Assembly: GCA_036253055.1 (NCBI GenBank)
Contig: GCA_036253055.1_4124.1
DNA length: 64,000 nt
DNA from: a phage
Direction: 5' to 3' (one strand)
Shown here: piece after piece, positions 46,147-53,040 of the stretch
How positions within the stretch are numbered: the first letter of the stretch is position 1
How the letters are laid out: each line of letters starts with the position of its first letter
Translations under genes and position numbers: made by a program
The notes under the pieces: generated by a model
Seen by the model: the letters and a program-made list of their open reading frames with translations, nothing else
What the model was told of the DNA's origin: nothing
Databases searched by the model: none

Positions 46147-46470
46147 TTAAAGATCTTTTTTGCGTTTAACATTCTGTACAGTACAATGCAACGGGATATT
46201 AAGATCATTGCACAAACGATAGAGGGAGGTTTCAACAGTATCAAGCCCGTCTACTGATTCCTTTAAGAGTGATACCGCCGTTTGTTGATATGCATCCTCA
46301 TAGCCATAAGTAAATGATTCAACCGCCAGATCATTCAAGCCGTTATCCAGTTCAACGCTTACATGACAAGAATGATAAGTATTGCCATATGAATCAGTCC
46401 AACGTTTACCGTCAACATTGATTGCATGGATTGCAGCCAGGGAAACGGTGTTGATGATAGTTTTAGCCAT
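46147..46470 (-). CDS. Hypothetical protein (107 aa); paralog of 39086-39409
   Basis: SD AAGGAA; class-2 promoter upstream. Confidence 0.6.
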   Translation of the reverse strand: MAKTIINTVSLAAIHAINVDGKRWTDSYGNTYHSCHVSVELDNGLNDLAVESFTYGYEDAYQQTAVSLLKESVDGLDTVETSLYRLCNDLNIPLHCTVQNVKRKKDL

Positions 46471-47307: not shown

Positions 47308-47324
47308 ACTGGAATACTACAGAC

Positions 47325-47352
47325 ACAAAAAAGCCCACTGTTTAAGGTGGGC
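47325..47352 (-). terminator. Intrinsic terminator (GCCCACcttaaacaGTGGGC + T6)
   Basis: Hairpin then TTTTTT on minus strand, 20 nt after stop at 47375. Confidence 0.7.
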
Positions 47353-47374
47353 TAGTGATTCAGTACTTTAATTG

Positions 47375-47857: not shown

Positions 47858-48049
47858 TTTATAAATCCTCAATTAAAGTTTAAGTTAGTTTATCAAAGTT
47901 TGTTTGACGTGTCCAGTTTTTCATTCGACTTACTGGCGGTCTACTTAATGTTCCCCGTCTTGATGTAATACATTCTACGCTTTTCCCTGGTAATGTCAAC
48001 TACTTTTTTAAAACTATTTTCAAAGTATACCAGTACTACGATACTACAA

Positions 48050-48078
48050 AAACAAAAAAGCCCACTGTATAAGTGGGC
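48050..48078 (-). terminator. Intrinsic terminator (GCCCACttatacaGTGGGC + T6)
   Basis: Near-duplicate of terminator at 47325; follows stop at 48097. Confidence 0.7.
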
Positions 48079-48096
48079 TAGTGATTCAGTACTATA

Positions 48097-48396
48097 TTAT
48101 AAACAATTAATTACGCCAGTGAATGTAACTTTCTCTGTATCCATTACAGTAACCGAACCGCGTTTACTTTTTGCATCGTAATAGATGGTCGTGCTACCCT
48201 GATCATCTTCTTCATGGTACGGGCCATTAGCAAACATTGCAGGGGCCAGTTCCAGGGATTTGGTAACGATCTCAGCCGTTTCCTCGTTAGTCATTGCAAC
48301 AGTGCACTGAATGAATTTTTCTTTCTGTACATCAACGGAAGCGTTAACAGCGAAAGAGGAAACAGATAAAGCCAGGGCGATGATTGCAGTTTTCAT
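48097..48396 (-). CDS. Putative secreted/periplasmic small protein (99 aa)
   Basis: N-terminal signal-peptide-like MKTAIIALALSVSSFAVNA; SD AAAGGAT; own promoter and terminator. Confidence 0.6.
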   Translation of the reverse strand: MKTAIIALALSVSSFAVNASVDVQKEKFIQCTVAMTNEETAEIVTKSLELAPAMFANGPYHEEDDQGSTTIYYDAKSKRGSVTVMDTEKVTFTGVINCL

Positions 48397-48418
48397 TTGT
48401 ATATCCTTTGTTAGTACT

Positions 48419-48474
48419 AGGGAGTATTCCCGATTAGATGTAAAACATTATACGCGTTTAAAAACTATTATCAA
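48419..48474 (-). promoter_or_regulatory. Class-1 cassette (TTGATA-N16-TATAAT + GTTTTACAT)
   Basis: Read on minus strand; weak hairpin. Confidence 0.5.
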
Positions 48475-48507
48475 GTACTTTAATATAAAAGTATTTGAAA
48501 AAAAGTC

Positions 48508-48640
48508 TTGACAACTGCATCCAGTACTGGCATAATATCTACATAAAGACGAGATAGTCACTAACCCACAGGGTGCATAGATCCGTCTATTAAATGATTC
48601 AGTACTGCAAAATAAAGGGGATCGTTTGATCCCCCTGATT
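48508..48640 (+). ncRNA. Candidate plus-strand small RNA (class-2 promoter + CACTAACCCACAGGGTGCA element + terminator hairpin)
   Basis: TTGACA 48508-13, CATAAT 48531-36, element 48559-77, hairpin GGGGATCgtttGATCCCC 48617-34; no ORF; opposite to all local genes. Confidence 0.35.
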
Positions 48641-52137: not shown

Positions 52138-52879
52138 GTACTTTCTACAAATACTTTTAAAATAGTTTTCTTTCTATATAGGGGAACTATCTTTCAGTAC
52201 TGCAACCATCCAGGGGAACTATCTTTCTATATAGTAGTACTATGATTCAGTACTGAATCAATCCACCAAATCATCCCGATACCCCGTAAAACGGCCTCAG
52301 ACGCATTCTAACGCATTAATACACCTAAGCTATACATTTGCACCATTCCAATCATTCCAGGGCTTTACAGGCCGTTTAAACGCGTTAAATTATTTTCAAT
52401 TATTTTGTTTTTAGCTATTGACTCAGTACTAAAAAAGCGTATAATTACTACATAGACGCGAGAAAGCGGATACCCCAGGGGGTGGGAAGATCCGTCCAAA
52501 ATTCAAGATATAAAAAAAGGATACACTCCCGCACCCTAGCAGGTTAACGCACTTTCTCAGTACTGAATTATAGTACCATAGTCCGGCCCAGGATGGCAAG
52601 CAAATTAATTAAAACTTTTTTCATCCAGGGTATTGCTTTATTTTTCCAGTACTGTATAATAGTTCCATCAAGTCGAGAAAGACTCAAGCCCACCGGGTGC
52701 ATAGTTACGCCCAAAATTCAGTACTGAAAAAATTTTTAAAAATATCCGTCCAGGCCGTTGACATTGCCCCCAGTTTATAAGATAATGATTCCAGATTCAG
52801 AAAAATCTAACTCCAGATACTGCGGGGAAACTATCCCCACGCGGTAGGGGAACTATTGGAAAAAACAAAATAAAATTTT

Positions 52880-53040
52880 GATTTAGCCGTCTATACTTCC
52901 AGACGTGTAACCATCTAGCCGTTTAGCCGTCCAAACGTCTAGCAATCCAGCCATCCAGAAATCTAGCCGTTTAGCCGTCTAGATGGATAGCCATCTTTAC
53001 TTCCAGACTTCTGGAGGGCTAGACATATCTACGTCCAAAA
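52880..53040. repeat. GC-richer block of short direct repeats (TAGCCGTTTAGCCGTC x2, CCATCCAG, TCCAGAC) with small hairpins
   Basis: Visible direct repeats; AGATGGatagCCATCT and CCAGActTCTGG palindromes. Confidence 0.5.

What the first reader, a model, noticed from the sequence alone, without database searches (positions are those of the whole stretch)
48097..48396. Small secreted/periplasmic protein with dedicated promoter and terminator
The 99-aa product starts with a typical signal peptide (MKTAIIALALSVSSFAVNA followed by a polar mature region) and is bracketed by a class-1 cassette and a strong terminator. Small exported phage proteins are frequently superinfection-exclusion or envelope-modifying factors.
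Basis: inference. Interest (0 to 1): 0.4.

Follow-up and report, generated by a model that had tools for sequence, protein, structure and literature searches.

The report
Small exported early jumbo-phage protein
This is a real, self-contained early gene of a 121Q-like giant coliphage that makes a small protein very probably exported to the space between the host's two membranes; it belongs to an uncharacterised phage-only family, it is not a relative of the T4 "Spackle" protein as one database record claims, and its suggested job of blocking further phage attack is plausible but unproven.

Summary
A 99-codon ORF lies on the minus strand at 48097-48396. It is 100% identical to Escherichia phage 121Q gp276. 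It has a near-consensus sigma-70 promoter, a Shine-Dalgarno site, and an 8-bp hairpin with a U-tract as terminator.

The promoter is one of 17 copies of a cassette in the window; none is expected by chance. Pairwise dN/dS is 0.04-0.2, so the gene is under purifying selection.

Export is well supported by sequence:
- The N-terminus has n, h and c regions and a VNA|S cleavage site.
- Two cysteines are invariant across the family.
- Distant homologues carry a lipoprotein signal peptide on the same domain.

AlphaFold2 gives a confident six-strand all-beta mature domain. It has no significant match to any solved structure and no Pfam, NCBIfam or PADLOC family; its only family is PHROG 31669, of unknown function.

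Homologues occur in 51 phage records. They lie in early small-gene arrays, inside the terminal repeat in the two records where repeats are annotated. They also occur in prophages and mobile islands.

The "protein spackle" label in phage fEgEco12 rests on signal-peptide similarity alone. A superinfection-exclusion or envelope role remains an inference.

Verdict: an ordinary exported early protein of unknown function; modest interest.

The parts
48434..48501 (-). Early-type promoter cassette. The -35 hexamer TTGATA is at 48474..48469 and the -10 hexamer TATAAT at 48452..48447, with a 16-nt spacer, an A/T-rich upstream stretch and the conserved GTTTTACATC start region.
   Evidence: 11 of 12 consensus positions. 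(17 cassette copies in the window, all on the minus strand, 0 expected by chance). (families D1-D3, D6).
48397..48446 (-). 5' untranslated region. It holds a weak 4-bp hairpin GGGA-AUAC-UCCC at 48431..48420 and the Shine-Dalgarno AAGGA at 48408..48404, 7 nt before the ATG.
   Evidence: sequence; the hairpin is -5.3 kcal/mol with z = -0.09, no better than shuffles. Sister cassettes carry a stronger GC hairpin at this place (D3 and D7).
48340..48396 (-). Codons 1-19, MKTAIIALALSVSSFAVNA: a Sec-type signal peptide with a predicted SPase I cut after VNA.
   Evidence: hydropathy and the -3/-1 rule; no lipobox. This segment is almost invariant among close relatives.
48100..48339 (-). Mature protein of 80 aa, about 8.8 kDa, pI about 4.5. 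A short linker is followed by a six-strand all-beta domain (residues 29-98) bracketed by the invariant C31 and C98. Conserved motifs are MT(D/N)ExTG, YHEEDxxGSTT and (K/R)GS(V/I)T(V/I)MD.
   Evidence: two AlphaFold2 runs; pLDDT averages above 90 for residues 31-99 except one block at 88 in the first run; identical strand layout. (conservation). (mass, pI, cysteine count).
48097..48099 (-). TAA stop codon.
48049..48079 (-). Intrinsic terminator: an 8-bp stem with 5 G-C pairs, a 5-nt loop and the tract TTTTTTGTTTT. It is part of a repeated terminator module at 48041-48096.
   Evidence: (-17.9 kcal/mol for the 61-nt stretch containing it, z = -3.8)., D12 and D16 (91-96% identical to 47314-47370).

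Best explanation
Shown from sequence: this is an autonomous transcription unit of a 121Q-like (Asteriusvirus) jumbo phage, with a host-type sigma-70 promoter, a ribosome-binding site, a 99-codon ORF and an intrinsic terminator.

Strongly inferred: the host RNA polymerase reads it early. The product is exported by Sec and cut by signal peptidase I after Ala19. It folds in the periplasm into an acidic mini beta domain of about 8.8 kDa, with six antiparallel strands in a meander. A C31-C98 disulfide would tie the first strand to the last.

Inferred mechanism: the protein has no catalytic signature, so it most likely works as a stoichiometric binder of another envelope protein. The likely contact surface is the strongly conserved central strands beta3-beta5 (YHEED, GSTT, GSVTVMD) and the beta1-beta2 turn. 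The most probable outcome is protection of the infected (or, for prophage copies, lysogenic) cell against further phage attack at the envelope. That could happen by neutralising a tail-borne cell-wall hydrolase or penetration device, as T4 Spackle does. It could also happen by jamming a receptor or channel from the periplasmic side, as T5 Llp does.

It is a functional analogue candidate, not a homologue, of those proteins.

Confidence by part: a real exported early protein, about 0.9; the exclusion role, about 0.35-0.4. The overall figure reflects the whole statement.
For: Gene reality:
- 100% identical to 121Q gp276.
- Homologues in 51 phage records.
- dN/dS of 0.04-0.2.

Early expression:
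- Near-consensus sigma-70 promoter, one of 17 cassette copies.
- Homologues lie 6 kb inside the 21.5-kb direct terminal repeat of vB_Ec-M-J, and inside the 20-kb terminal repeat of Klebsiella phage Muenster.
- In the related phage CBB, RpoD-like promoters concentrate in arrays of short ORFs that the authors suspect are early genes, continuing into the terminal repeat (PMC5259590).

Export:
- Signal peptide anatomy.
- C31 and C98 are invariant in 17 and 14 diverse sequences.
- Relatives carry a lipobox instead (P0013, P0020, P0022, P0023), with A, S or T at position +2.
- The Muenster homologue is annotated from SignalP, and its homology is confirmed by hhalign at E = 1.3e-42.

Binder rather than enzyme:
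- A 70-residue all-beta domain.
- No match to any enzyme family in Pfam, NCBIfam, PADLOC or by PDB sequence search.
- Conservation is concentrated in beta3-beta5.
- The domain's net charge is -6 here and negative in 16 of 17 members.

Benefit to a resident phage: relatives sit as accessory genes in E. coli and E. fergusonii prophages just upstream of the terminase genes. In Leclercia and Enterobacter they sit in islands next to an Xre-type repressor and serine recombinases.

Precedents: T4 Spackle is an early, periplasmic, disulfide-bonded 75-aa inhibitor of the gp5 lysozyme (PMC7677548). T5 Llp is a small disulfide-bonded periplasmic lipoprotein that jams FhuA (PMC9586334).
Against: - No sequence or fold similarity to any protein with a proven exclusion function.
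- No neighbouring gene points to a target. In lytic phages the neighbours are all small hypothetical genes. The gene is not next to receptor-binding or lysis genes.
- The prophage form is rare: 2 of 5426 complete E. coli genomes.
- Export was judged by hand rules and by a homologue's annotation, not by a predictor run here.
- The disulfide and the clustering of conserved residues are deduced from topology; model coordinates could not be inspected.
- Early timing is inferred from promoter type and position only.
Confidence: 0.4

Rival explanations
1. It is a true homologue of T4 Spackle (gp61.3), as the GenBank record of phage fEgEco12 labels its orthologue, and it inhibits the tail lysozyme in the same way.
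For: The fEgEco12 orthologue (79% identical) is annotated 'protein spackle'. There is a weak PHROG hit to phrog_1586 'spackle periplasmic', E = 0.021. The two proteins share size (99 vs 97 aa), a signal peptide, two cysteines and an acidic character.
Against: - The PHROG hit covers residues 1-40 only, meaning the signal peptide plus a few residues.
- BLASTP against T4 Sp gives E = 2.4.
- Profile comparison aligns only residues 1-14.
- A sequence search of the PDB does not recover the Spackle entries 6x6o or 7cn6, which T4 Sp itself finds at 1e-62.
- Spackle is an alpha-helical bundle (PMC7677548); this domain is all-beta in two confident models.
Confidence: 0.03
2. It is exported but has nothing to do with exclusion. 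It adjusts the host envelope for the phage's own cycle. Examples would be inhibiting a host periplasmic hydrolase or protease, binding a metal through the His/Glu/Asp motif, or setting lysis timing as a periplasmic holin regulator in the manner of T4 RI.
Against: The prophage neighbours matched no PHROG family, lysis families included. Lipoprotein homologues hit Rz-like spanin PHROGs only over the signal peptide. In the jumbo phages the gene sits among early genes rather than late or lysis genes. Carriage by prophages and non-phage islands is easier to explain by a benefit in the resident state.
Confidence: 0.3
3. It is a counter-defence factor. It neutralises a host- or prophage-encoded envelope barrier, such as a periplasmic or outer-membrane exclusion protein, so that infection can proceed.
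For: The predicted early expression from the end of the genome presumed to enter first suits a takeover or anti-defence role. The N-terminal half of the mature domain evolves 2-3 times faster than the C-terminal half: dN is about 0.33-0.47 against 0.10-0.27 in the divergent pairs.
Against: A protein made only after DNA entry is too late to counter barriers to adsorption or injection of the same genome. There is no PADLOC or other defence-related match. dN/dS stays well below 1 in every segment.
Confidence: 0.1
4. The N-terminus is not a functional signal peptide: the protein is cytoplasmic or a membrane-anchored stub, or the ORF is not expressed.
For: No dedicated signal-peptide predictor could be run. 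The 5' hairpin of this cassette copy is weak. The -35 hexamer departs from the family's usual TTGCAA.
Against: The n, h and c regions are canonical. Cysteine pairs are invariant, and homologues swap in a lipobox. A homologue carries a SignalP-based annotation. Selection is purifying. The Shine-Dalgarno site is strong, and the promoter matches 11 of 12 consensus positions.
Confidence: 0.04

Closest known systems
PHROG 31669 / Escherichia phage 121Q gp276 (AIT14166.1) and its relatives
   Same: Full-length match at E = 3.4e-63 and 100% identity to 121Q gp276. All 14 diverse relatives tested hit this PHROG.
   Different: None; this is the family the protein belongs to. The family has no assigned function. 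This work adds more distant members: Alcyoneusvirus and Salmonella or Erwinia jumbo phages, Vequintavirinae, prophage lipoproteins and island copies.
T4 Spackle (gp61.3; PDB 6X6O, 6XC0, 7CN6)
   Same: A small early phage protein with a Sec signal peptide, two cysteines and an acidic mature domain of 75-80 residues. It is a plausible model for how this protein might work, by inhibiting an incoming tail's lysozyme (PMC7677548).
   Different: No sequence similarity beyond the signal peptide. The fold is all-beta rather than an alpha-helical bundle. It is not a family member.
T5 Llp and the Cor lipoproteins of T1 and phi80
   Same: Small phage proteins facing the periplasm, with an internal disulfide, that act by binding a host envelope protein (PMC9586334). 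Several distant relatives of this protein are lipoproteins with an outer-membrane-type +2 residue.
   Different: The window protein has no lipobox. Matches to the Cor PHROG are limited to residues 1-36 of the lipoprotein relatives. The gene is not next to a receptor-binding protein gene. No fold match was found.
Bacterial beta-sheet lysozyme inhibitors (Ivy, MliC/PliC, PliG, PliI)
   Same: Small periplasmic or lipoprotein all-beta proteins. They work by inserting a conserved loop between strands into a lysozyme active site (as summarised in PMC7677548).
PeSL promoter/stem-loop cassettes of T4-type phages (PMC2839356, PMC4122927)
   Same: Repeated modules of early promoter plus stem-loop flank small, variable ORFs. 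Gene content between cassettes differs among close relatives: for example, an extra 231-nt gene lies beside the orthologue in fEgEco12 and vB_Ec-M-J but not in the window, 121Q or PBECO4.
   Different: The phage lineage and the cassette sequence are different. Here the hairpin follows the promoter, in the 5' untranslated region, and a separate repeated terminator module closes the unit. Recombination at these cassettes was not tested.

Membership tests
PHROG 31669 (121Q gp276 family, function unknown) | Full-length profile match | tested here: met
   E = 3.4e-63 over residues 1-99 of 99. 100% identical to 121Q gp276.
Sec/SPase I-exported periplasmic proteins | A positively charged n-region, a hydrophobic h-region of 10-15 residues, small residues at -3 and -1, and no lipobox | tested here: met
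   K2; hydrophobic core at residues 4-17; V-N-A|S; no L-x-x-C motif. This is a hand rule only, because SignalP was not available. A homologue carries a SignalP-based annotation.
Sec/SPase I-exported periplasmic proteins | Actual processing and periplasmic location | not testable with these tools
   Needs cell fractionation, PhoA fusions or mass spectrometry.
T4 Spackle (gp61.3) | Sequence similarity of the mature domain | tested here: not met
   BLASTP E = 2.4. hhalign aligns residues 1-14 only. The PHROG 1586 hit is E = 0.021 over residues 1-40 only. A PDB sequence search finds no Spackle entry.
T4 Spackle (gp61.3) | Compact alpha-helical bundle fold | tested here: not met
   Two AlphaFold2 models give six beta strands and one 4-residue helix. 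Spackle is helical (PMC7677548). No fold match.
T4 Spackle (gp61.3) | Early expression, signal peptide and periplasmic disulfide | tested here: inconclusive
   The promoter type, signal peptide and invariant cysteine pair are present. Timing and oxidation state are only inferred.
T4 Spackle (gp61.3) | Binds and inhibits the tail-associated lysozyme | not testable with these tools
Needs a binding or activity assay.
Llp/Cor exclusion lipoproteins | Lipobox and an acylated Cys+1 | tested here: not met
   The window protein has no lipobox. Only distant relatives (P0013, P0020, P0022, P0023) have one.
Llp/Cor exclusion lipoproteins | Sequence similarity to Llp or Cor | tested here: not met
   The window protein has no PHROG hit to them. 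Cor PHROG 1119 hits of relatives cover residues 1-36 only.
Llp/Cor exclusion lipoproteins | Gene adjacent to the receptor-binding protein gene | tested here: not met
   The neighbours are small hypothetical early genes in every phage examined.
Ivy / MliC-PliC / PliG / PliI lysozyme inhibitors | Family profile match or shared fold | tested here: not met
PeSL-like mobile regulatory cassettes | Repeated early promoter plus stem-loop modules that flank variable small ORFs | tested here: met
   17 promoter cassettes in the window, 0 expected by chance. Hairpin and terminator modules are repeated. Gene content between cassettes varies among relatives. Sequence relationship to T4-type PeSLs was not tested.

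The most novel reading that the evidence does not exclude
The protein founds a previously unrecognised family of disulfide-stapled periplasmic mini beta domains. The family is shared by Rak2-like jumbo phages, rV5-like phages, enterobacterial prophages and mobile islands. It occurs in a soluble periplasmic form and as an outer-membrane-type lipoprotein. On this reading, it blocks phage entry at the envelope by a mechanism and a target different from those of Spackle, Imm, Llp/Cor or Sim. It would use the conserved acidic YHEED/GSTT/IMD surface to bind a tail-tip enzyme or a host envelope protein.
Probability: 0.3. Interest if true: 0.55.

Novelty: new member of a known kind. Interest (0 to 1): 0.3.

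Why it matters
If the exclusion role were confirmed, this would be a new structural class of envelope-level phage-exclusion protein, found in therapy-relevant jumbo coliphages and also carried by prophages. That bears on phage-cocktail design, because phages carrying it could exclude each other. It also offers a small, well-folded probe for whichever envelope step it blocks. As things stand, the practical results are a corrected annotation (not Spackle) and a defined family with testable motifs.

Tried and rejected
Rejected explanations:
- Spackle homology. The similarity is confined to the signal peptide and the fold class differs.
- Cor or Rz-like relationships of the lipoprotein relatives. 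These are also signal-peptide-only matches.
- Pfam DUF4949. The hit has E = 0.026 and 15 bits against a cut-off of 31, and only 1 of 17 members shows it, so I treat it as noise.
- The exported neighbour genes in the prophage (125 aa) and in the Leclercia island (101-aa lipoprotein) looked like paralogues by eye. Profile comparison did not support that: probability 1.5% in one case, a signal-peptide-only match in the other.

Searches that gave nothing useful:
- PDB sequence search, best E = 0.67.
- Foldseek against the PDB, best E = 0.025 with TM-score at most 0.38.
- NCBIfam and PADLOC.
- Rfam and tRNA scans around the gene. The only hits were Trp_leader matches below threshold, which are simply the terminators.
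- Literature searches on 121Q-like phages found no mention of this gene.

Technical dead ends:
- The afdb50 fold library was not available.
- The 17-sequence alignment was too diverse for locus scans.
- A megablast of the prophage region found only 2 of 5426 E. coli genomes, all annotated as hypothetical.

Full report
**1. What is there**

The minus strand of 48097-48396 carries a 99-codon ORF.
- A Shine-Dalgarno AAGGA lies 7 nt before the ATG.
- Upstream is a sigma-70-type promoter, TTGATA-16 nt-TATAAT, at 48474..48447, matching 11 of 12 consensus positions.
- 17 nt after the stop codon comes an 8-bp hairpin with 5 G-C pairs, followed by TTTTTTGTTTT. The 61-nt stretch that contains it folds at -17.9 kcal/mol, z = -3.8 against shuffles.

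A 42-nt pattern, GTACTTGCAA-N16-TATAATGTTTTACATC, occurs 17 times between 34.5 and 52.1 kb with at most 3 mismatches. Every copy is on the minus strand, and none was found in 100 shuffles (families D1-D3). The terminator is also a repeated module, 91-96% identical to the one at 47314-47370 (D12 and D16).

In sister cassettes a GC-rich hairpin follows the promoter. In this copy it has decayed to 4 bp and folds no better than shuffled sequence.

**2. Source and reality of the gene**

The region is 97.4% identical to Escherichia phage 121Q (Asteriusvirus, 348.5 kb) and 84-89% identical to about 36 other giant coliphages and Salmonella phages. The protein is 100% identical to 121Q gp276, which is annotated as hypothetical. 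tblastn finds relatives in 51 phage records. Among five Asteriusvirus orthologues the ORF keeps its length, and pairwise dN/dS is 0.04-0.2. The N-terminal half of the mature part changes 2-3 times faster than the C-terminal half. This is a real gene under selection.

**3. Export**
- The N-terminus has K2, a hydrophobic core at residues 4-17, and V-N-A before the predicted cut. There is no lipobox.
- A crude scan of all ORFs in the 64-kb window finds this kind of N-terminus on no other ORF of the array's coding strand; the other three ORFs it passed are short and lie elsewhere.
- The mature protein is 80 aa, about 8.8 kDa, with pI about 4.5 and exactly two cysteines.
- C31 and C98 are invariant in alignments of 17 and 14 diverse relatives.
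- Several relatives replace the SPase I signal with a lipoprotein signal (LSGC or LTGC, with A, S or T at +2) in front of the same domain. Swapping one export signal for another on a conserved domain is good evolutionary evidence that the domain works outside the cytoplasm. By the Asp+2 rule (general knowledge), these relatives would go to the outer membrane.
- The Klebsiella phage Muenster relative (hhalign E = 1.3e-42) was independently annotated "putative secreted protein" from SignalP.
- I could not run a signal-peptide predictor myself.

**4. Fold**

I ran AlphaFold2 twice: once with 7 close sequences and once with 14 diverse ones. Both runs give the same result. Residues 1-23 or 1-24 are disordered, consistent with a signal peptide and linker. 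Ten-residue block averages of pLDDT for residues 31-99 are above 90, except one block at 88 in the first run. The strands are 29-37, 43-50, 60-64, 67-74, 79-85 and 90-98, with one short helix at 52-55.

By topology this is an antiparallel meander. C31 starts the first strand and C98 ends the last, so a disulfide could staple the two edges together. I could not check this against coordinates.

Conservation is highest in strands 3-5 (YHEED, GSTT..., GSVTVMD) and in the turn between strands 1 and 2 (T-D/N-E-x-T-G). The domain is acidic in 16 of 17 members.

**5. Comparison with known proteins**
- Pfam shows only a sub-threshold DUF4949 hit. It is seen in 1 of 17 members.
- NCBIfam and PADLOC return nothing for the window protein and no family match among the 17 members beyond scattered weak hits (best E = 0.0021, mostly lipoprotein families).
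- PHROGs places the protein in phrog_31669, function unknown, at E = 3.4e-63.
- A PDB sequence search gives nothing better than E = 0.67.
- Foldseek against the PDB gives nothing better than E = 0.025 and TM 0.38.
- BFVD returns only family members and other uncharacterised phage proteins.
- An exhaustive profile search of 1.84 billion representative proteins found 15 at E <= 1e-3. The 13 retrieved (96-149 aa) all start with a signal peptide or lipobox.

**6. The "spackle" label**

The fEgEco12 orthologue is deposited as "protein spackle". I fetched T4 sp and compared the two proteins.
- BLASTP gives E = 2.4.
- Profile comparison aligns only residues 1-14.
- The PHROG spackle hit, E = 0.021, spans residues 1-40.
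- Spackle is an alpha-helical bundle (PMC7677548), whereas this protein is all-beta.

The label is an artefact of signal-peptide similarity. The same applies to the Cor and Rz-like spanin PHROG hits of the lipoprotein relatives, which cover residues 1-36 to 1-49.

**7. Context**

In lytic phages the gene always sits in arrays of small hypothetical genes. The two records examined that annotate genome ends place it inside the direct terminal repeat: 6 kb into the 21.5-kb repeat of vB_Ec-M-J, and 15.5 kb into the 20-kb repeat of Muenster. For the related phage CBB, RpoD-like promoters concentrate in such arrays, which the authors suspect are early genes, and continue into the terminal repeat (PMC5259590). 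Early expression by host polymerase is therefore a reasonable inference, but it is not shown.

Gene content between cassettes differs among close relatives. This resembles the PeSL cassettes of T4-type phages (PMC2839356, PMC4122927).

Outside lytic phages:
- Relatives of 152-153 aa are lipoproteins in E. coli and E. fergusonii prophages. They lie just upstream of the terminase genes and directly after another gene for an exported protein.
- A 124-aa relative lies in Leclercia and Enterobacter islands, beside an Xre-type repressor, a lipoprotein gene and serine recombinases.
- The prophage neighbours match no PHROG family and are not demonstrable paralogues.
- The prophage form is rare, found in 2 of 5426 complete E. 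coli genomes.

**8. Mechanism**

The domain is small, non-enzymatic, conserved, acidic and exported. It is probably made early by a lytic phage, and it is also carried by resident elements. The best reading is a stoichiometric binder of an envelope protein.

Protection against further phage attack is the most economical single explanation for both settings. Spackle (lysozyme inhibition) and Llp (receptor jamming from the periplasm; PMC9586334) are working models, not relatives. I put the exclusion role at about 0.35-0.4. The main alternative, at about 0.3, is some other envelope role: inhibition of a host enzyme, metal binding, or lysis timing. Nothing computed here separates these.

**9. Verdict**

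The export interpretation is well supported, and the functional suggestion remains open. The gene is already in databases as a hypothetical protein. What is new here is the wider family, its conserved cysteines and motifs, its confident and unmatched small beta fold, its terminal-repeat position, and the correction of the Spackle annotation. Interest is modest.

Noticed in passing
window 48508-48600, 52417-52510 and 52632-52725 (+ strand): Three copies of a sigma-70-like promoter (TTGACA, TTGACT or TTGCTT, then 17 nt, then C/TATAAT) point opposite to the early genes. Each is followed by a conserved segment of about 55 nt. Its first hairpin keeps the loop GAGA(A/T)A while the stem co-varies: GAC/GTC, CGC/GCG, AGTC/GACT. 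There is no Rfam or tRNA match (D8, 62, 63, 85). This may be a short divergent or antisense RNA family. The first copy lies between this gene's promoter and the upstream gene's terminator.
   Followed up: partly
L002 3044-3343 (Escherichia phage fEgEco12, XBS49092.1): The orthologue is deposited as 'protein spackle'. The only similarity to T4 Spackle is the signal peptide, and the predicted fold is all-beta rather than helical. This is a likely annotation error that could spread to other records.
   Followed up: yes
window 47314-47370 and 48041-48096: The terminators of two neighbouring genes belong to one repeated module that is 91-96% identical, with AAAAAAGCCCACTGT.TAAGTGGGCTAGTGATTCAGTACT on the + strand. 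Both the promoter and the terminator of these small genes are therefore reusable cassettes (D12 and D16).
   Followed up: partly
window 52888-52999: A run of degenerate 8-nt units (CGTCTAGC, CATCCAGA, CGTTTAGC and similar) forms at least 7 overlapping repeat copies spaced 8 or 16 nt apart (D5). Its nature is unknown.
   Followed up: no
L013 5699-6375 and L012 5606-6375 (Leclercia and Enterobacter chromosomes); L003 7624-8462 (E. fergusonii prophage): In bacteria the family member always directly follows, with overlapping stop and start codons, another gene for a small exported protein that has a cysteine near each end of its mature part. In the islands this is a 101-aa lipoprotein; in the prophage it is a 125-aa periplasmic protein. 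Homology between the partners is not statistically supported. They may form a two-gene module. No such partner exists next to the window gene.
   Followed up: partly
window 46147-46470 (- strand) and L014 7189-7572: The 107-aa product of a nearby early gene (...GKRWTDSYGNTYHSCHVSV...NVKRKKDL) visibly resembles a 127-aa ORF (...GKRWVDSAGNTYHSVSV...DVRRKKDL). That ORF lies 2 kb from the family member in an unrelated 153-kb viral contig. Distant large phages may share more than one gene of this early array. This was judged by eye only.
   Followed up: no
window 48340-48396: Among Asteriusvirus orthologues the signal-peptide codons change much less at synonymous sites than the rest of the gene (dS 0.21 against about 1.0 when the window gene is compared with fEgEco12, vB_Ec-M-J or PBECO4). 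This hints at a constraint on the nucleotide sequence at the 5' end, such as translation initiation or recombination between cassettes.
   Followed up: no
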